Source: an uncultured Acidobacteriota bacterium
GTDB taxonomy: Bacteria; Acidobacteriota; Terriglobia; UBA7540
DNA length: 64,000 nucleotides
NCBI GenBank assembly: GCA_963804995.1
Contig: CAWDSK010000006.1
Span: 512,001 to 576,000, forward strand
Direction of reading: 5' to 3'
The notes beneath the pieces were generated by a model, which was given only the letters and a program-made list of their open reading frames with translations, was not told the origin of the DNA and ran no database searches. Position 1 is the first letter of the stretch. Each line of letters begins with the position of its first letter. Positions 1,401 through 31,304 of the stretch are shown here, piece after piece. A program made the translations under genes and the position numbers.

Positions 1401-1537
1401 TTTGGAGTGCGGCAGCTTGCTGCCGCTTTCCTCCCCGCGAGCTTGCTGCGGGAATCTTTACCGTGGGGCCTGTCGAGCCACGGCACGGCCGGCAAGCTGG
1501 CCTTATCGATAGCGGCAGCAAGCTGCCGCACTCCAAA
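1401..1537. repeat. REPIN-like element, family A
   Basis: 27-bp perfect inverted repeat tttggagtgcggcagcttgctgccgct at 1401-1427 and 1511-1537; each arm is itself palindromic. Confidence 0.85.
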
Positions 1538-1672
1538 ACTCCGCCTGCCCACCTCTCGCTTACCGCCTTCCGGTCACGCCCCACCGCTTACCGCCCTAAA
1601 TCGCGTTCGTGACGCCCTGCCCTGGAGTGTGCAAGAATGGGTCGCCAAATCTAACGGAAAGGTCAAACTTCC

Positions 1673-2890
1673 ATGACCTCACAGCACCAGACTTCCACCC
1701 GTTACCTGATGGCGACGGCGTGCGCAGGCCTGTTTACATTCGGTGTGATAACTTCACTTCTAGGCGCAATTCTGCCGGAGTTGAGTGCGCGCTCCAATTT
1801 TGATTTGACCCGCAGTGGAACGCTTTTCAGTTTTCTCTATTTCCCGCAAGTTCCCATGGTCTTCCTGGCGGGGCCCTTGATCGACCGCTTTGGCAAAAAG
1901 CTTGTACTGGCCGTGGGTTTTATGTGCAGCGCCGCGGCGCTGGTGGGGATGGCTTACGCGCCCAGCTACGCGGTGCTGGGAGCGCTGCTCGTCATGCTCG
2001 GCCTGGGCGGCAGTTCCGCCATGGCCGCCGCGAACACGCTCATCCCCGACCTTTACCCGCAGAATCCCTCTTCCGCGCTCAATCTGGCAGGCATCTTCTT
2101 CGGCGTGGGAGCAGTCTTCTTCCCCTGGCTGGTGGCGCTTATGACGCGCTGGTTGGTAAGGCTGATGGCGCCCCCGATGGTGCTGGTCACAATCCTGTGG
2201 TTCATTGCGTTGCTGGTCGGACTGGTGGCCGTGGTGGCGTTGATGCAGAAGTTTCCCCCCGCGAGCATGGCGGGAGGATTCGACTGGGAGCGCGCCCTGT
2301 CGCTGGCGACTAATCCCGCTGTCATTATCCTTGCCTGCGTCCTATTCTTCTATTCCGCTTTGGAAATTTCCACCGCTGGCTGGATTCGCACTTTCCTGGA
2401 GAAAGATCTGGCCGTTTCCGCCCGGAATTCCACCCTCCTGCTGACGACTTTCTGGATCATGATGATGTTGGGCCGGCTGATTGCCAGTCAAGTCGTCAAG
2501 CGAGTTCGCGGGCCGCAATTGTTGCTGGGATGTTCCCTGGGGGCCCTCGCGGGACTCCTGCTCATGGCGCTGGCGCCCAACCTGTGGATAGCCACCGCCG
2601 GCATTATTCTCTGTGGGCTCTCCTACGCGCCGGTATTTCCCACCACCGCGGGGACCGCCAGCACCTACTTTGCGCGCATCTTTGGGACCGTGTTCGGCAT
2701 GCTCATGACTCTCGCCCTGCTGAGTGGGGCGGTGATTCCTCCCGCCATCGGATACGTCGCCCAACACCAATCGGTACGAGCCGGCATCTGGATTCTGGCG
2801 GGCATCGCGGTCCTGCTCCTGATTACGCAGGGGATCTTCAACAGTTACGAGCGGCGGAAACTGCTCCCCGCGGCGCCGGGACCGGCATGA
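1673..2890 (+). CDS. MFS transporter (sugar/fucose permease-like)
   Basis: About 12 hydrophobic segments; motif A-like GPLIDRFGKK. Confidence 0.88.
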   Translation: MTSQHQTSTRYLMATACAGLFTFGVITSLLGAILPELSARSNFDLTRSGTLFSFLYFPQVPMVFLAGPLIDRFGKKLVLAVGFMCSAAALVGMAYAPSYAVLGALLVMLGLGGSSAMAAANTLIPDLYPQNPSSALNLAGIFFGVGAVFFPWLVALMTRWLVRLMAPPMVLVTILWFIALLVGLVAVVALMQKFPPASMAGGFDWERALSLATNPAVIILACVLFFYSALEISTAGWIRTFLEKDLAVSARNSTLLLTTFWIMMMLGRLIASQVVKRVRGPQLLLGCSLGALAGLLLMALAPNLWIATAGIILCGLSYAPVFPTTAGTASTYFARIFGTVFGMLMTLALLSGAVIPPAIGYVAQHQSVRAGIWILAGIAVLLLITQGIFNSYERRKLLPAAPGPA

Positions 2891-3048
2891 GTGGATAATA
2901 TTGAGAGTTAACGGCTCACAGCTTGTGGTTATGCTGTCAAGCTATCGTCGCGCGGACCTCCTATGCTTGCCCGGGCAGGTCAGGACCGACAGATTGAGGC
3001 GCACGGCTATCGAAGGTGTGAAGTGGAGGGACACGCGCGAAATATGGT

Positions 3049-3300
3049 TCAATTATCACCTGCCATGTATCGCTGGATGACTTCACGTTTTGCGGGCGTC
3101 AAGCCGAGGAATGCCAATCCTACTTTTTTGCCCGAGTGGATTATATAAAGGACCTTGGCCCGCACCTTCTGTGCCCCAATCAGGGGCATCTCGCGCTCGG
3201 CGAAATGCGCTTTTCTGGGCTCTCGGGGCACAGGATGCGCAGGTCGCGAGATTTGGGGCATCAGGAATTCCAGTTCCAGAACCTGACCCACCTCGACTCC
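3049..3300 (-). pseudogene. PilZ-domain C-terminal fragment
   Basis: VGQVLELEF...VRAKVLY...VGLAFLGLT..REVIQRY resembles a PilZ barrel; no clear start. Confidence 0.4.
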
Positions 3301-27241: not shown

Positions 27242-28558
27242 ATGGATAACGATACTCTGAATATTTTGGACAAGCGGACGAACACGACTTATGAAGTGCC
27301 GTTTCACAAGGGCACCATACGCGCCATGGATTTGCGGAAGATTAAAACCGGGCCCGAGGATTTCGGCCTGATGACTTACGACCCGGCGTTCATGAACACG
27401 GCTTCGTGTCACAGCGCCATTACTTTCATCGACGGCGACAAAGGCATTCTGCGCTACCGCGGGTATCCCATCGAGCAACTCGCGGAGAAGTGTACGTTCC
27501 TTGAGGTCGCATATCTGCTTCTCGCTGGTGAGTTGCCTACGTCCTCCCAATTAAAGGACTGGGTCAACAATGTCACTCACCACACCATGTTGCACGAGAC
27601 GACCAAGAAGTTTCTGGAGGGTTTCCGTTACAACGCCCACCCCATGGGAATGTTCATCAGCACTGTCGCGGCGCTCTCCACGGTTTATCCGGAAGCCCGG
27701 GATGTGCATGACGCCGCCACGCGGCAACTCCAGATTTTTCGCCTGATCGGCAAAGTTCCCACCATCGCCGCTTACACGTACCGCCACGGCCTGGGCTTCC
27801 CCTACGTCTATCCCGACAACGACCTGAGCTATGCCGAAAACTTCATGAACATGTTGTGGAGGATGGCGGAGCCCAAGTACGTGGCCAATCCCGCCCTGGC
27901 GCGCGCGCTCGACATCCTCTTCATCCTGCACGCCGACCACGAGCAGAATTGCAGCGCCAACGTGATGCGTTCGGTGGGCAGTTCCCAGGCCGACCCGTTT
28001 GTGTCGACGGCTGCGGCGGCGGCAGCGCTCTCCGGCCCCTTGCACGGCGGCGCCAATGAAGAAGTGCTGAAAATGCTTGACGAGATCGGATCGAAGGACA
28101 AGGTGCCGGCTTACATTGAAAGCATCAAAGCGGGCAAGGGAAAGTTGATGGGCTTCGGCCACCGCGTCTACAAGAACTACGATCCCCGCGCGCGCATCAT
28201 CAAGCAGGCCGCCGAAGAAGTCTTCGAGGTCACCGGCAAGAATCCCAAGCTCGAAATCGCCCTGGAACTGGAACGCATCGCGCTGCAAGACGATTACTTC
28301 GTCAAGCGCAAGCTCTATCCCAACGTGGATTTCTACTCCGGCATCATCTACCAGGCCATGGGATTCCAGCCGGAAATGTTTACGGTGCTGTTTGCCATTC
28401 CGCGTACGGCCGGATGGCTGGCGCAATGGCAGGAAATGATCCAGGACCCCGAACAGAAAATTGCCCGCCCACGCCAGATTTACACCGGCTACGACGAGCG
28501 GAATGTTGTTCCCATGGAGAAGCGCGGGGAGGCGAAGGAAGCAGGCAGTGGGCGGTAA
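27242..28558 (+). CDS. gltA: Citrate synthase
   Basis: HADHEQN, GPLHGGANE, GFGHRVYK and YPNVDFYSG motifs. Confidence 0.97.
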   Translation: MDNDTLNILDKRTNTTYEVPFHKGTIRAMDLRKIKTGPEDFGLMTYDPAFMNTASCHSAITFIDGDKGILRYRGYPIEQLAEKCTFLEVAYLLLAGELPTSSQLKDWVNNVTHHTMLHETTKKFLEGFRYNAHPMGMFISTVAALSTVYPEARDVHDAATRQLQIFRLIGKVPTIAAYTYRHGLGFPYVYPDNDLSYAENFMNMLWRMAEPKYVANPALARALDILFILHADHEQNCSANVMRSVGSSQADPFVSTAAAAAALSGPLHGGANEEVLKMLDEIGSKDKVPAYIESIKAGKGKLMGFGHRVYKNYDPRARIIKQAAEEVFEVTGKNPKLEIALELERIALQDDYFVKRKLYPNVDFYSGIIYQAMGFQPEMFTVLFAIPRTAGWLAQWQEMIQDPEQKIARPRQIYTGYDERNVVPMEKRGEAKEAGSGR

Positions 28559-28650
28559 GCAGAAAGCAGAAGGCAGAAAGCAGAAGGCGGTAGGCAGCGA
28601 GCGGCGTGTGCGAGTCCCGACGCCATCGGGATGGGCGGCAGGCAGTGATT

Positions 28651-28688
28651 GTAGCGCGGACCCCCGTCGTTGGGGTCCGCGGCTCTTC
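28651..28688 (+). repeat. GTAG-type REP, family B
   Basis: gtagcgcggaccccc...ggggtccgcggctcttc; paired copies at 32053-32189 and 34970-35090. Confidence 0.8.
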
Positions 28689-28824
28689 CGTTGACGCCTT
28701 CGATCATGCGGCAACAGGAGAGTTGGTAGCCACGGTCAGCGTTTTTCTGACCGTGGGTTCTTCCCTTGATGACGAGGGCATAGCACGCAGGGACAGTTCA
28801 ACCCCGAGCGGAAGCGGCGGGTGA

Positions 28825-29001
28825 GGCGGGGGTAGCCACGGTTAACGATTTTCTGACCGTGGGTTCTTCTGGTGGTGGTCGGGTTACAGCAAACTTACTT
28901 TGGACAGGGCAACGGTAGCCGCGTGTTCCATCCAGATTGACGACCTGCCGCTGGAGCATCGGGCATGAGAAAAGCCCACGGTCAGAAAAACGCTGACCGT
29001 G
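28825..29001 (+). repeat. REPIN family G (gtagccacggtcag...ctgaccgtgg), right arm split by the IS
   Basis: Arm ends ...ctgaccgtg at 29001 and resumes gctacccgc at 30716; extra arm at 28725-28760; inverted homolog at 31801-32000. Confidence 0.88.
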
Positions 29002-29078
29002 ATGTTATGAAACGGCGATGCCTCCTCGGGTCCAGGTAGACTGGACCTGGGAAAGAAATTCAACGAGGAGGCAAGACG

Positions 29079-30119
29079 ATGATACCGGTTGCGTCGGACG
29101 TTCACAAGGGACGTTGTTGGATGGCGATGATTCCGCCCGGGGAAGACGTAAAAATGCTGGAGCCGATCGAGTGCACGCGGGAAGCGTGGCGGCAGCGCTT
29201 GGCGGAGCTGCCGCCGGATGCGGAGATCGCTCTGGAAGTTTCCACCAGCGGTTATTTTGTGATGAGTGTGCTGGAAGAGGCGGGGTGGCGGGATCGGGCG
29301 CACTGGGTGCACACGGCGGGGATCGACAGCTTGCGCAAGCAGAAGTCGGACCGGCTGGACACTCGGCGCTTGGTGAAGAAACTGGCGGTGCACGACGTGG
29401 AGCCGCTACCGGAGGCTTGGTTTCCGCCCCCTTCCATCCGGGAATTACGCCTGCTGGCGCGGCAGCGGTGCGGCCTGGCGCGGCTGCGGGCCCAGACGAA
29501 GAACCGCGTCAATAGCCTGCTGGAGATGCACGGGCTGCGACCGCAGCGGTGCGTCTTCACCGCCAAGGGGCGAGCCTGGATCCAGCAGCAAGCGCTCTCG
29601 TCGGCGGCGCAGTTGTGTTTCGAGCGGATGTTTCGCCTGTACGATTTTCTCAGCGCCGAGCGCGAAACCAGCGAGGCGGAACTGCTGGCGGCCGCCGCGG
29701 CTTTCCCCCAGGTGGCGCTCCTGCAGACCATCCCCGGCCTCGGGCACATGCTGGCGGCGGTCATCTGGAGCGAGATCGGAGACCTGGCGCGTTTCGACTC
29801 CGCCGACGCGCTGTTGAACTATACCGGCTTGGTGCCCAGTTCCTACGATAGTGGCGAGGTTTCGATTCATGGTCCGATCACCCGCCAAGGTCCGGTCTGG
29901 TTGCGCTGGGCCTTGATCACCGCCGCCAACGCCCTGACGCGCAGCAAGAGCCCGCTCGGCCAGCGTTACTGGCACCTGCGGCGCTGCCACAAGCACCCCA
30001 ATGTGGCCAAGACGGCGGTGGCGGGTTCGGTCGCCCGCTGCGTTTACGGAGTTTTGAAACACGGAGCACCTTTCCAGGCCGAACGTTGGGGCCGGAGAGC
30101 CGGCAAGCTGGGGCAGTAA
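29079..30119 (+). CDS. IS110-family DEDD recombinase/transposase
   Basis: SDVHK, LEVST and KSDRLD (DEDD); TIPGLG; GLVPSSYDSG with the catalytic Ser; ITRQG..LRWAL; GAGGAGG RBS. Confidence 0.95.
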   Translation: MIPVASDVHKGRCWMAMIPPGEDVKMLEPIECTREAWRQRLAELPPDAEIALEVSTSGYFVMSVLEEAGWRDRAHWVHTAGIDSLRKQKSDRLDTRRLVKKLAVHDVEPLPEAWFPPPSIRELRLLARQRCGLARLRAQTKNRVNSLLEMHGLRPQRCVFTAKGRAWIQQQALSSAAQLCFERMFRLYDFLSAERETSEAELLAAAAAFPQVALLQTIPGLGHMLAAVIWSEIGDLARFDSADALLNYTGLVPSSYDSGEVSIHGPITRQGPVWLRWALITAANALTRSKSPLGQRYWHLRRCHKHPNVAKTAVAGSVARCVYGVLKHGAPFQAERWGRRAGKLGQ

Positions 30120-30690
30120 GCCTGAGGTAGCCATGGGGAAACCAAACCCGAACCGTGATGAGGAACTGCCCCTCGAACAACAGACTGAGGCCTGCGGGAG
30201 ACCCCCGCAGTGATCCTGTAGAGATGACTGGAATCGGCGCATCCGCCGGCGACATCGTGGCAAGCGACAAGCGCCCACGTCCTGGGCTCCGAGTTTCAGA
30301 AAGGGCCGAGCGAGAATTCTTCTCCTCGGCCGCGGTCGGGGGTGCGTGGCCTGGGGATTTCTCTTGGGCCACCGCACCACCGGCAGGCCAGGGTGAGAAC
30401 CTGGCCCTACCCCAGGGAGGTGTTTTAACTTAGCCGTGCAAGTTTCGGAGTGGCGAACTCGGCGAGGATCGTAATCGGCCGGGCGTTTTCTCAGGCATGG
30501 GGAAGCTATCGTAACCACCAGGAGGAGGAGCGATCATCCCATCGCCCCCCTGCTCGTCGTTACGATGAGCCTCCCACCGGCTATTCCTCGGCGGGTTGCT
30601 CGCCAGCAGAGCCCGCTTCCGCTTCGCCGGCTGACTGCCATTCTGAAACTAGGTGCAGACTTCTGTCAATCGGCACCTAAAATCCGCTTG
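30111..30690 (+). ncRNA. Predicted bridge/seek RNA in the 3' non-coding end
   Basis: Internal loop with GGTAGCCA and ACCGTG matches the target; AGAGATGA and GACATCG match the circle junction; many hairpins; exact ends unknown. Confidence 0.75.
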
Positions 30691-30734
30691 ACACGGCATC
30701 GCGGTTTCAGAGATGGCTACCCGCTGACGACGCA

Positions 30735-31304
30735 ATGTGGTTTGATGACCGGATCAAGCAATTTCAAAACGTTGCAGCGAAGTACGTGGATACCCCAAAC
30801 GCCCACACAAAGTGGTTAACCAACCAAATATCCGCGTGGCTCTTGCGACCCTGGACCGAAATACTCCGTCAGGGTGGGACTCAGTCATTTTTGACGGAGC
30901 GCCCTGGATTTGTGACTGACTTTATCAGAGGAATAGGATGGAAGAAGCCCTGGCGCTCGGTCGTACCGTTCTGTATTTCCGCTCTCCTGCTTCTCCTGTC
31001 GGTCGCGCTTGTCATTGGCTGCTATCTATTCTTCACGCCAACGGCAGCTTACGGCGCGGCTGGTATCAGCGGGCTTCTTTACGCGCGTCGGTACGTTCAG
31101 GCCCGCGATTTCAGGAAAGAGCGCGCGCGAGTCACCCGTTTGTGGCGCAAGGTTTCCGAGTTGCACAATGAGGTCGAAAACGGCAAGTACAACGCTGGCG
31201 AAGTCATCAGACGTTTCAGAGAAGTTGAAGTTGATGACTTGCGCCTCCCATCAATTTTCGTGAGCGTCATTGCGTTGTCGGAAGTGCACCCGCCAAGCGA
31301 ATAG
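30735..31304 (+). CDS. Hypothetical membrane protein (cargo, possibly N-truncated)
   Basis: 189-aa ORF with two hydrophobic segments; no RBS evident. Confidence 0.55.
   Translation: MWFDDRIKQFQNVAAKYVDTPNAHTKWLTNQISAWLLRPWTEILRQGGTQSFLTERPGFVTDFIRGIGWKKPWRSVVPFCISALLLLLSVALVIGCYLFFTPTAAYGAAGISGLLYARRYVQARDFRKERARVTRLWRKVSELHNEVENGKYNAGEVIRRFREVEVDDLRLPSIFVSVIALSEVHPPSE

What the first reader, a model, noticed from the sequence alone, without database searches (positions are those of the whole stretch)
30292..30679. Extra ~360-nt highly structured domain appended to the guide RNA
Seen: AGTTTCAGAA (30292-30301) pairs with TTCTGAAACT (30641-30650). This encloses hairpins at 30304-30331, 30341-30378, 30386-30406, 30508-30566 and 30591-30616; a further hairpin lies at 30650-30679. 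No convincing ORF is present. GTTTCAGA also matches the right IS end (30704-30711). Characterised bridge/seek RNAs are to my knowledge much shorter than this 600-nt end. Inference: an undescribed accessory RNA domain, a second ncRNA or captured structured cargo.
Basis: partly seen in the sequence, partly recalled or inferred. Interest (0 to 1): 0.8.

Follow-up and report, generated by a model that had tools for sequence, protein, structure and literature searches.

The report
Shared structured RNA module inside transposons
The long tail of this jumping gene is not one oversized guide RNA but a patchwork, and its last part is a previously undescribed folded RNA cassette that unrelated transposon families in Acidobacteria also carry.

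Summary
They do not form one domain. The canonical seek/bridge RNA lies directly after the transposase stop (30126-30227), and its guides change with the target in relatives. Three lineage-specific GC hairpins follow (30304-30406). Then comes a discrete module of about 160 nt (30485-30640).

The module has four covarying helices: 89.7% of cells are paired, 20 of 31 pairs changed on both sides, and 0 of 500 shuffles reached this. It has no Rfam match. It sits near the right end of IS3-family (DDE) elements and of distant IS110-family elements across Acidobacteriota, sometimes on the strand opposite to the transposase.

Close relatives that insert into the same target lack the module. The proposed enclosing helix is no better than chance (9 of 60 shuffles; pairing probability 0.05), and a nearer partner outcompetes it.

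Best reading: an exchangeable accessory RNA cassette carried as cargo, not part of the guide. Its function is unknown and probably involves binding a host factor. It is a new RNA motif of moderate to high interest.

The parts
29002..30715 (+). IS1111-type insertion sequence, 1714 bp. The boundary is uncertain by 2 nt because TG stands at both junctions.
   Evidence: Four copies in the genome are 99-100% identical. All four carry the junctions ...ACCGTG|ATGTTATGAAAC...TTTCAGAGATG|GCTACC inside a REP-like hairpin.
29079..30119 (+). DEDD transposase, 346 aa
   Evidence: Pfam DEDD_Tnp_IS110 (E 1.8e-8) and Transposase_20 (E 3.1e-22).
29008..29022 (+). Left subterminal inverted repeat. Its partner is 30695-30709, with 14 of 15 positions complementary.
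   Evidence: Read from the sequence. Subterminal repeats define the IS1111 group (PMC11187229; PMC11208160).
30126..30159 (+). Target-binding loop of the seek/bridge RNA. The 5' guide GGTAGCCA (30126-30133) complements the top strand of the right target half. The 3' guide AACCGTGAT (30151-30159) equals the left target half plus the first IS bases.
   Evidence: The guides change with the flanks in relatives. The second family has GCTGGCG/GCGCTCTGAT with flanks GCGCTCTG|...|CGCCAGC in 4 of 4 copies. L031 has AACTGTGAT with flank GACTGTG. The order, top-strand match 5' of bottom-strand match, is as published for IS1111.
30174..30227 (+). Putative donor-binding loop: hairpin 30192-30210 followed by GTAGAGATGA (30218-30227). 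AGAGATGA equals the right IS end plus the first base of the left end, that is, the circle junction.
   Evidence: (G/C/T)AGAGATG(A/G) stands at the aligned place in the relatives read. It does not vary, so the assignment is inferred. No 5' donor guide was identified.
30292..30301 (+).
   Evidence: Exact complement of 30641-30650. Pairing probability is about 0.05, and 9 of 60 shuffles give a repeat as long. A (G/A)YUUCA element followed by a hairpin also stands here in the relatives L034 and L074, which lack the module.
30304..30406 (+). Three lineage-specific GC-rich hairpins (30304-30331, 30341-30378, 30386-30406)
   Evidence: Present in the MFE folds. Kept with changed inner sequence in L031, whose transposase is 89% identical. 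Replaced by unrelated sequence in the second family, L035 and the G065 element.
30441..30454 (+). Candidate closing stem of the module (P0), pairing with 30637-30650 (14 bp, two G.U)
   Evidence: Pairing probability is about 0.95 for most of the stem. CAGAAUGGC/GCCAUUCUG is kept in the second family and, with a U.G, in L035; it is 8 of 9 in L084; L040 has a change on both sides (by eye). A test over 41 loci showed no preference for cognate partners, so the stem stays provisional.
30485..30640 (+). Conserved structured RNA module. P1 is 30501-30518 with 30556-30574 and encloses a variable hairpin. P2 is 30577-30580 with 30627-30630. P3 is 30591-30596 with 30611-30616. P4 is 30598-30600 with 30605-30607. 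The invariant loops are UAUUCCUC (30582-30589) and UCCGCUUC (30618-30625).
   Evidence: Covariance model R1 scores 147.4 bits here. Covariation is shown; coordinates come.
30640..30669 (-). Promoter-like site on the minus strand (TTGACA, 18 nt, CAGAAT), pointing back into the module
   Evidence: Consensus scan: 2 sites found against 0.2 expected. TGTCAA and ATTCTG are kept in IS1111-type relatives. Function untested.
30650..30679 (+). Hairpin with a 7-bp stem (TAGGTGC/GCACCTA) between the module and the right end
   Evidence: The sequence is not conserved in the second family.
30688..30715 (+). Right end. It holds an outward-facing -35 box TTGACA (30688-30693), the right subterminal repeat and the terminus. 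Joined to the left end it would give TTGACA, 18 nt, GATG|AT.
   Evidence: Read from the sequence. Junction promoters are described for this family (PMC12288879 introduction). Inferred here.

Best explanation
The 596-nt 3' end of this IS1111-type element is a mosaic of four parts, not one extended guide RNA.

(1) The canonical seek/bridge RNA lies right after the stop codon. This is shown by guides that change with the target.
(2) A lineage-specific cluster of GC hairpins follows.
(3) Next comes a self-contained module of about 160 nt (30485-30640), possibly closed by 30441-30454 with 30637-30650.
(4) Last is the right end, with its subterminal repeat and outward -35 box.

Part 3 is an exchangeable accessory RNA cassette carried as cargo. 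The same four-helix RNA, with the same invariant pyrimidine-rich internal loops, lies 75-90 nt inside the right terminus of IS3-family (DDE) elements. It also lies in IS110-family elements whose transposases are only 26-60% identical to this one. In some elements it is on the strand opposite to the transposase.

It moves because it lies between the transposase gene and the terminal repeat (shown). It passes between element families by recombination or nesting (inferred). It is not needed for RNA-guided target choice or for transposition as such (inferred from multi-copy relatives without it).

Because its loops do not vary with the element's ends or targets, I infer that the plus-strand RNA acts through a partner common to the hosts, a protein or RNA of Acidobacteriota. 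In this respect it resembles the hitch-hiking sRNA gene ssr9 of ISPpu9.

My odds: a real structured RNA shared across IS families, about 0.85. A self-contained accessory or hitch-hiker RNA acting through a host factor, about 0.45.
For: Boundaries and copies.

Guide and target covary across the window family, the second family, L031-L033, L035 and the G065 element.

Module structure:
- On the MAFFT alignment A1 (30 sequences), 89.7% of 911 cells are paired and 20 of 31 pairs changed on both sides. 0 of 500 shuffles reached this, and the slid controls pair at 29-45%.
- RNAalifold on its own recovers P2-P4, with 10 of 18 pairs compensatory.
- On the model-fitted alignment A3 (56 hits), 30 of 31 pairs changed on both sides.
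- A U.G pair in P3 is present in 30 of 30 sequences and in 50 of 53. It keeps the same sense in the elements where the module is convergent with the transposase.

Distribution:
- blastn matched 103 of 401 genomes of the class. By my reading of the table, about 11 of these match only the terminal 40 nt.
- The model matched 12 of 151 genomes sampled across the phylum, 6 of them outside the class.
- 1 of 72,556 plasmid records matched, from an Acidobacterium.

Context of 52 module loci besides the window:
- 19 have an IS3-type OrfB (rve plus HTH_21) upstream on the same strand; 7 have an IS110-type transposase; 26 have neither, 6 of them at contig edges.
- An IS3 element with two 100% identical 1594-bp copies holds the module 90 nt inside its right terminus.
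- Four loci have the module convergent with an rve transposase, and in three of them it lies inside an element bounded by inverted repeats.
- pACPOL3 has a full module 9 nt from the stop of an annotated IS110 transposase on the other strand.

Dispensability: the G065 element has a 62%-identical transposase, the same target and guides, and 3 copies, with a 3' end of about 350 nt and no module hit with filters off. L034, L074 and L077 also lack it.

Transcription hint: a 656-nt metatranscriptome contig at depth 26.5 covers 30051-30707 while the transposase body has almost no cover in that run. The core bin 30567-30624 piles up to a summed depth of 47-388 in 4 of 4 RNA libraries.
Against: No function is shown, and no RNA end, promoter or partner has been mapped.
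- The metatranscriptome data are contigs, which cannot show ends or exclude DNA.
- No plus-strand promoter was predicted upstream of the module in the window.
- The strand call rests largely on two columns: 52 of the 75 G.U cells come from them, and elsewhere G.U (23) and A.C (29) balance.
- In IS3 elements an ORF runs through the module. It usually starts at an ATG overlapping the orfB stop, and third codon positions vary about twice as much as first and second (128 against 56 and 69). A coding or dual role is therefore not excluded.
- In this genome all eight intact modules sit inside IS110-type copies. The only others are an IS3 remnant and one weak hit, so there is no free-standing intact copy here, unlike ssr9.
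- The loci examined are the best matches returned by the searches, not a random sample, and related genomes are not independent.
Confidence: 0.6

Rival explanations
1. The module is a cis-acting 3'-UTR element of the transposase and bridge-RNA transcript. It would control what happens to RNA that reaches the right end, for example by protecting the 3' end, by offering RNase III a site in the long P1 helix, or by stopping transcription before the outward -35 box of the junction promoter.
For: The module is on the same strand as the transposase and directly 3' of it in 19 IS3-type and 7 IS110-type loci. In many IS3 copies it starts at the orfB stop codon. Its distance to the right terminus is similar in both families: 75 nt here and 90 nt in the G203 IS3 element. 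P1 is a nearly continuous helix of more than 20 bp. The X1 contig joins the bridge-RNA region and the module in one 656-nt piece. A U-run opens the module and is often preceded by a GC hairpin.
Against: In four rve-type loci and on pACPOL3 the module is convergent with the transposase, so there it cannot be part of that mRNA. No terminator-like hairpin with a U tract follows the module. Relatives without it are multi-copy.
Confidence: 0.2
2. One reading: 30292-30679 is one highly structured domain, closed by the 10-bp helix, that belongs to an unusually long guide RNA and is needed for recombination.
For: The inverted repeat is exact. The region folds with z = -5.4. A relative's RNA-library contig spans the whole 3' end. 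In L031, 8 of 9 positions can still pair, and in the second family one U-A is replaced by C-G (by eye).
Against: 9 of 60 shuffles give a repeat as long, the pairing probability is 0.05, and a 14-bp rival partner has 0.95. The 3' strand belongs to a stretch that is also present next to the module in IS3 elements. The 5' hairpins are not conserved beyond an 89%-identical relative. The G065 element has the same guides and target but neither the 5' strand nor the module. The module's loops do not vary with ends or targets.
Confidence: 0.05
3. The conserved stretch is primarily protein-coding: a small protein or C-terminal extension (MSF(F/L)RHGEIY ... DE(F/S)PAGYS(S/L)AGCSPAEPASASPA) translated by coupling to the IS3 orfB stop.
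For: In most IS3-type rows of A1 one frame is open from an ATG that overlaps the orfB stop (ATGA) through the module, despite length changes in the variable part. In five loci orfB is fused in frame to it. Third codon positions vary most (128 against 56 and 69).
Against: Compensatory changes are bought with radical residue changes, for example C to W with A to P in L050, and S/L/W or E/L/G/V at single codons. The 5' block keeps its nucleotides while shifting frame between copies. The frame has stops in the second family, L084, L055 and L061, and has no start codon in the IS1111-type copies. The window ORF has no Pfam match. In GC-rich DNA about 15% of 65-codon frames are open by chance (my estimate).
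Confidence: 0.07
4. The feature acts as DNA. It would be either a miniature inverted-repeat element that landed in the 3' end (14-bp terminal repeats at 30441-30454 and 30637-30650) or a structured binding platform near the transposon end.
For: The unit is flanked by a 14-bp imperfect inverted repeat. It occurs in both orientations relative to transposase genes and at a similar distance from element termini. Short transposase-less copies exist, such as L040, L100 and L102.
Against: Four separate helices covary while the internal loops stay invariant, which is the pattern of a folded RNA rather than of terminal repeats. The U.G in P3 is kept in one sense. No target-site duplication is evident at 30440/30651. 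The flanking repeat is not supported as a general feature.
Confidence: 0.08

Closest known systems
seekRNA / bridge RNA of IS1111-group elements (Siddiquee et al. 2024, PMC11187229; Durrant et al. 2024, PMC11208160)
   Same: Both are encoded in the long non-coding end downstream of a DEDD transposase. The element as a whole fits the family, and 30126-30227 behaves like a seekRNA: the top-strand match lies 5' of the bottom-strand match, and the guides change with the target.
   Different: The module at 30485-30640 has no variable guide loops. It occurs with DDE (IS3) transposases, can lie on the opposite strand, and is missing from close relatives. Published seekRNAs are 82-154 nt, whereas this 3' end is 596 nt.
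ssr9 sRNA module of ISPpu9, an IS110-family element of Pseudomonas putida (Pares-Guillen et al. 2025, PMC12288879; abstract, introduction and one results section read)
   Same: Both are extra RNA genes downstream of the transposase of an IS110-family element that inserts into REP sequences. ssr9 is not required for transposition and is present in only some relatives. It is interpreted as a selfish passenger.
   Different: ssr9 is flanked by its own copies of the end boxes (A'/B') and also occurs alone in the genome. Here the end-like motifs stand in a different order (right-end-like at 30293, left-end-like at 30641), and this genome has no intact free copy. ssr9 is confined to three closely related strains, whereas this module spans a phylum and two transposase superfamilies. 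There is no sequence relationship: the Rfam searches found nothing, and whether ssr9 is in Rfam was not checked.
IStrons (group I intron fused to an IS; PMC4227781, search listing only)
   Same: Both are a structured RNA living inside a DNA transposon as a chimeric partnership.
   Different: IStron RNAs are self-splicing group I introns with a known activity. This module is far smaller, has no Rfam match and no known activity.
Acido-1 and Acido-Lenti-1 RNA motifs (Weinberg et al. 2010, PMC2864571; table and passages read)
   Same: Both are candidate structured RNAs of unknown function found in Acidobacteria by comparative genomics.
   Different: Both are Rfam families (RF01686, RF01687). Neither matched the window region or eight other module loci at E up to 1. 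The 'Solibacter-1' and 'Soil-1' motifs of that paper are not in Rfam and could not be compared.

Membership tests
IS1111 group of the IS110 family (the whole element) | DEDD (RuvC-like) N-terminal domain plus Transposase_20 C-terminal domain, 330-350 aa | tested here: met
   Pfam PF01548 and PF02371, 346 aa. The size range is taken from PMC11187229.
IS1111 group of the IS110 family (the whole element) | Subterminal inverted repeats | tested here: met
   TGAAACGGCGATGCC (29008-29022) against GGCATCGCGGTTTCA (30695-30709): 14 of 15 positions complementary, 6 nt from each terminus.
IS1111 group of the IS110 family (the whole element) | Long non-coding region downstream of the transposase gene, and site-specific insertion | tested here: met
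   78 nt lie upstream and 596 nt downstream. 4 of 4 copies sit at ACCGTG^GCTACC in a REP-like hairpin.
seekRNA / bridge RNA (for 30126-30227) | Two short segments matching the top and bottom strand of the target, with the top match 5', which change when the target changes | tested here: met
   Shown in the window family, the second family, L031-L033, L035 and the G065 element.
seekRNA / bridge RNA (for the module 30485-30640) | Single-stranded loops complementary to target or donor that vary with them | tested here: not met
   The loops UAUUCCU(C/U) and (C/U)UCCGCUUC are nearly invariant across IS1111-type, other IS110-type and IS3-type elements with different ends and targets.
seekRNA / bridge RNA (for the module 30485-30640) | Association with IS110-family recombinases only | tested here: not met
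   19 of 52 loci have an IS3-type OrfB upstream, and 4 have a convergent rve transposase.
Any Rfam 15 family | Match to a curated covariance model | tested here: not met
   Window 28500-31000 gave only mir-602 at E 0.37, far below its gathering score. Eight other module loci gave only snoZ206 at E 0.43.
ISPpu9-type modular add-on (ssr9-like) | Module flanked by its own copies of the IS end boxes, in the order left-like then right-like | tested here: inconclusive
   A right-end-like GTTTCAGA stands at 30293 and a left-end-like TTCTGAAAC at 30641, which is the reverse of the order needed to flank the module. The definition comes from PMC12288879.
ISPpu9-type modular add-on (ssr9-like) | Free-standing copies of the module in the same genome | tested here: not met
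   Of the 10 model hits in the genome, 8 lie inside IS110-type copies, 1 is an IS3 remnant and 1 is weak.
ISPpu9-type modular add-on (ssr9-like) | Dispensable for transposition | not testable with these tools
   There is only comparative support: relatives without the module are multi-copy.
MITE | Terminal inverted repeats plus target-site duplication, and empty sites in relatives | tested here: inconclusive
   A 14-bp imperfect repeat flanks the unit. No duplication is evident. No precise empty site was found; the relatives without the module differ over the whole region.
Intrinsic terminator | GC hairpin followed directly by a T run | tested here: not met
   The scan finds none at the module's 3' side. 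The only plus-strand site is 30400-30416, upstream of the module.

The most novel reading that the evidence does not exclude
The module is a new class of transposon-borne RNA that two mechanistically unrelated transposase superfamilies (DDE IS3 and DEDD IS110/IS1111) have each recruited. Both transpose through a circular intermediate with a junction promoter. The RNA, placed 75-90 nt from the right terminus, would do a job specific to that lifestyle. It might recruit a host factor or process transcripts that cross the junction, or it might be a small ribozyme or ligand-sensing RNA that gates transposase expression.
Probability: 0.15. Interest if true: 0.85.

Novelty: new variant of a known kind. 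Interest (0 to 1): 0.62.

Why it matters
Bridge and seek RNA elements are being turned into genome-editing tools, so it matters which parts of their non-coding ends are guide and which are passengers. Here the guide occupies only the first 100-150 nt of a 596-nt end. The rest includes a cassette that can apparently be lost without loss of targeting, which is useful for minimising constructs.

Independently, the cassette is a well-supported structured RNA that is absent from Rfam. It is widespread in a major soil phylum, shared between unrelated transposon families, and abundant among metatranscriptome contigs. It is either a selfish RNA that rides on transposons or a common solution to a problem those transposons share. 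Both possibilities can be tested in cultured Acidobacteria.

Tried and rejected
- Rfam: nothing above noise for the window or for eight other module loci.
A trimmed alignment was used instead.
- General closing stem (P0): duplex energies between the 50 nt upstream and the 50 nt downstream of the module in 41 loci were no better for cognate than for non-cognate pairs (mean -24.75 against -24.62 kcal/mol; 853 of 2000 permutations as low). P0 therefore stays a local feature of the window clade.
- MAFFT could not align the P0 5' strands, so P0 was counted by eye only.
- An internal closing helix between the 5' block (UCAGGCAUGG) and the tail (CCAUUCUGA) fits the window and L044 but fails in the rows with G at the variable position (by eye). 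Dropped.
- Hammerhead-like and -1 frameshift readings of the 5' block (GAUGAG, UUUUUUC): the motifs are not conserved across rows. Dropped.
- Single-sequence folding does not recover the comparatively supported P2 (probability 0.002), so the MFE pictures were not used for the module.
- Sequencing runs: only small shares of the words (0.05-0.07) were held by RNA runs. The laid data are contigs, so parts without cover, and the two X10 contigs that begin at 30441, are not used as evidence of RNA ends.
- RE-only blast hits (L068-L082) turned out to be short right-end-like remnants next to GCTACC without a transposase. They were not pursued.
- Earlier findings by sequence: none.
- Literature: four full-text searches and a term search inside bioRxiv 10.64898/2026.10.21.760802 found no description of an RNA motif shared by IS3 and IS110 elements. 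Supplements of those papers were not read.
Full report
THE ELEMENT. Window 29002-30715 is an insertion sequence of the IS1111 group of the IS110 family.
- Its 346-aa ORF (29079-30119) carries DEDD_Tnp_IS110 and Transposase_20.
- The genome (G000, Acidobacteriota by the titles of its relatives) holds four copies that are 99-100% identical.
- All four have the junctions ...ACCGTG|ATGTTATGAAAC ... TTTCAGAGATG|GCTACC inside a REP-like hairpin that has dozens of copies in the genome.
- TG stands at both junctions, so the boundary is uncertain by 2 nt.
- Subterminal inverted repeats (29008-29022 and 30695-30709, 14 of 15 positions complementary) lie 6 nt from each terminus.
- The non-coding ends are 78 nt on the left and 596 nt on the right.
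- A second family in the same genome has four copies and a transposase 59% identical. It has nearly the same ends but sits in a different repeat, GCGCTCTG^CGCCAGC.

WHERE THE GUIDE IS. GGTAGCCA (30126-30133) lies directly after the stop codon and complements the top strand of the right target half. AACCGTGAT (30151-30159) equals the left target half plus the first IS bases. Top match 5' of bottom match is the order published for IS1111 seekRNAs (PMC11187229). These segments change with the target in relatives:
- The second family has GCTGGCG and GCGCTCTGAT at the aligned place.
- L031 has AACTGTGAT next to a GACTGTG flank.
- L035 has the second family's backbone but the window's guides and the window's left flank.
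- The G065 element has the window's guides and flanks in 3 of 3 copies.
A hairpin (30192-30210) follows, and then GTAGAGATGA (30218-30227). Its last eight bases equal the right end joined to the first base of the left end. This segment is present in all the IS1111-type relatives I read but never varies. I therefore call it a putative donor loop. The canonical guide thus occupies roughly 30120-30265, in line with the published 82-154 nt.

THE OBSERVATION.
- The region is far more stable than shuffles: z = -5.4 with 0 of 100 shuffles as good, and z = -4.95 with 0 of 20.
- The enclosing helix does not stand up. A perfect repeat of at least 10 bp with a loop of at least 50 nt arises in 9 of 60 dinucleotide shuffles of the 596-nt end.
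- In the ensemble of the 606-nt RNA that helix has a probability of about 0.05. Its 3' strand instead pairs with 30441-30454 (14 bp, two G.U) at about 0.95.
- They give the nearer partner better support. CAGAAUGGC/GCCAUUCUG is kept in the second family and, with a U.G, in L035. It is 8 of 9 in L084. L040 has a change on both sides (by eye).
- Neither helix is general. A test of cognate against non-cognate flanks over 41 loci was flat.

WHAT IS CONSERVED.
- Against the second family, only window 30479-30715 still aligns (about 75% identity), while 30182-30478 does not.
- The three GC hairpins at 30304-30406 are kept, with changed inner sequence, in L031, whose transposase is 89% identical. They are replaced by unrelated sequence in the second family, L035 and the G065 element.
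- The G065 element has a 62%-identical transposase, three copies, and the same target and guides. Its 3' end is only about 350 nt and gives no module hit with all filters off.
- L034, L074 and L077 also lack the module while keeping the target and donor segments.

THE MODULE. Window 30485-30640 is a different matter.
- blastn with 30479-30715 matched 103 of 401 genomes sampled from the class. By my reading of the table, about 11 of these match only the terminal 40 nt.
- Thirty copies aligned by MAFFT show a 5' block (GUUUUYUSAGGCAUGGGGAA) and a long helix P1 that encloses a variable hairpin.
- P2, P3 and P4 follow, separated by two nearly invariant pyrimidine-rich strands, UAUUCCU(C/U) and (C/U)UCCGCUUC.
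- RNAalifold alone recovers P2-P4, with 10 of 18 pairs compensatory.
- For my 31-pair structure, 89.7% of 911 cells pair and 20 pairs changed on both sides. 0 of 500 shuffles reached any of the five measures, and sliding the partners drops pairing to 29-45%.
- On 56 model-fitted hits, 30 of 31 pairs changed on both sides. This alignment leans towards the model.
- Covariance model R1 finds 10 hits in the own genome: the 4 + 4 IS110-type copies, one decayed IS3 right end and one weak hit.
- R1 finds the module in 12 of 151 genomes sampled across the phylum, 6 of them outside the class.
- Only 1 of 72,556 plasmid records matches, and it is from an Acidobacterium. One IMG/VR contig matches.

CONTEXT. 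I examined 52 module loci besides the window. They are the best matches returned by the searches, not a random sample.
- 19 have an IS3-type OrfB (rve plus HTH_21) upstream on the same strand. The module often begins at the orfB stop codon.
- 7 have an IS110-type transposase that is 26-89% identical to the window's.
- 26 have neither, and 6 of those sit at contig edges.
- In G203 two 100% identical 1594-bp copies of an IS3 element with typical terminal repeats hold the module 90 nt inside the right terminus. In the window the distance is 75 nt.
- Four loci carry a variant module convergent with an rve transposase. In three of them it lies about 76 nt inside an element bounded by inverted repeats about 1.66 kb apart.
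- On pACPOL3 a full module (81 bits) ends 9 nt from the stop of an annotated IS110 transposase on the other strand.
- A quick tree puts most IS110-linked modules together and L083 apart (no support values were printed).

STRAND, CODING AND EXPRESSION.
- G.U cells outnumber A.C cells 75 to 29, but 52 of the G.U cells come from two columns. One of these, in P3, is U.G in 30 of 30 sequences and in 50 of 53. It keeps its sense where the module is convergent with the transposase, so I take the strand of the model as the RNA strand.
- In IS3 copies one frame is usually open through the module from an ATG that overlaps the orfB stop, and third codon positions vary most (128 against 56 and 69).
- Against a coding role, compensatory changes cause radical residue changes, the 5' block shifts frame between copies, and several IS110-type copies have stops or no start. 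A dual role is not excluded.
- A 656-nt contig in one metatranscriptome library (depth 26.5, about 90% identical) spans 30051-30707, while the transposase body is almost uncovered in that run.
- The core bin 30567-30624 reaches a summed depth of 47-388 in 4 of 4 RNA libraries. This reflects many relatives, and DNA carry-over cannot be excluded.
- A promoter-like site on the minus strand (30669-30640) points back into the module. It was not tested.

MECHANISM.
Shown: the module is a folded nucleic-acid unit, is internal to active elements of two transposase superfamilies, and is absent from close, multi-copy relatives.
Inferred: it is an accessory RNA cassette carried as cargo and exchanged between elements.
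- Its invariant loops do not track ends or targets, so it acts through a partner common to the hosts rather than as a guide.
- I prefer the self-contained RNA reading (odds about 0.45) over a cis-acting 3'-UTR element (about 0.2). Only the former fits both orientations.

COMPARISON WITH WHAT IS KNOWN.
- The nearest analogue is ssr9 of ISPpu9, an sRNA gene downstream of an IS110-family transposase in a REP-targeting element. It is not required for transposition and is viewed as selfish (PMC12288879).
- This module differs from ssr9. It lacks flanking end boxes in the right order, has no free intact copy in this genome, and is spread over a phylum and two transposase superfamilies.
- Rfam has no match, including the Acidobacterial motifs of PMC2864571 that are in Rfam.
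- Four full-text searches and one in-paper search found no description of such a motif. Supplements were not read.

LIMITS.
- One of the 30 rows of A1 and A2 (L046) comes from G386, which flags as unpublished.
- Related genomes are not independent, so the shuffle controls overstate significance.

Noticed in passing
window 28726-28765, 28833-28870, 28974-29001 (interrupted by the IS): A REP-like hairpin family (GGTAGCCACGGTCAG...CTGACCGTGGGTTCTTC). The first 102 nt of my 1.9-kb query, which hold one copy, matched several dozen further places in the genome. This is the target of the IS and of its relatives in other genomes.
   Followed up: partly
window 30640-30669, minus strand: A promoter-like site (TTGACA, 18 nt, CAGAAT) pointing into the module. 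The two hexamers are conserved in IS1111-type relatives. It would give an RNA antisense to the module and to the bridge RNA.
   Followed up: no
window 30688-30715 joined to 29002-29010: Joining the ends would create TTGACA, 18 nt, GATGAT, a plausible junction promoter for the circular form. The left end also holds a hairpin in which GCCTCCTCG (29020-29028) can mask the ribosome-binding site CGAGGAGGC (29064-29072).
   Followed up: no
G000:C3:1379689-1382528 (second-family copy; locus L006/L015): This copy carries a 1,102-bp insertion 5 nt before the putative donor guide GTAGAGATGA, that is, inside its bridge RNA. The insertion has a 260-aa ORF with a helix-turn-helix-like start that was not scanned. 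It is probably another IS nested in the guide region.
   Followed up: partly
G000:C1:2473-2635 (locus L096 1501-1663): A decayed right end of an IS3-type element, with a module carrying an internal deletion and the terminal repeat. It is the only trace of the IS3 carrier in this genome.
   Followed up: partly
loci L041, L044, L045, L048, L052, L058, L064 and others: IS3-type elements have a small ORF (MSF(F/L)RHGEIY...PAGYS(S/L)AGCSPAEPASASPA) that starts at an ATG overlapping the orfB stop (ATGA) and runs through the RNA module. In five loci it is fused in frame to orfB.
   Followed up: partly
loci L104, L105, L106 (about 1425-3090): An rve-type element of about 1.66 kb with terminal repeats TGTCCTGGTTCAGCGTGAAATGGAC.../...GTCCAATTCC...CAGGACA. 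A variant of the module lies just inside one end and points towards the 3' end of the transposase gene.
   Followed up: partly
loci L068-L082: Short right-end-like sequences (...TTGACACGGCATCGC..TTTCAGAGATG) abut GCTACC in many genomes of the family, with no transposase within 2.3 kb. L074 and L077 keep target and donor segments as well. These are transposase-less derivatives or remnants.
   Followed up: partly
window 28560-28600: A purine-rich, near-tandem stretch (cagaaagcagaaggcagaaagcagaaggcggtaggcag) lies directly after the stop of the 438-aa ORF 27242-28558.
   Followed up: no
L127 2414-2576 (NZ_CP030844.1, Acidisarcina polymorpha pACPOL3): A cultured strain carries a full module in an unannotated gap, 9 nt from the stop of an annotated IS110 family transposase on the other strand. 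This gives a handle for experiments.
   Followed up: partly
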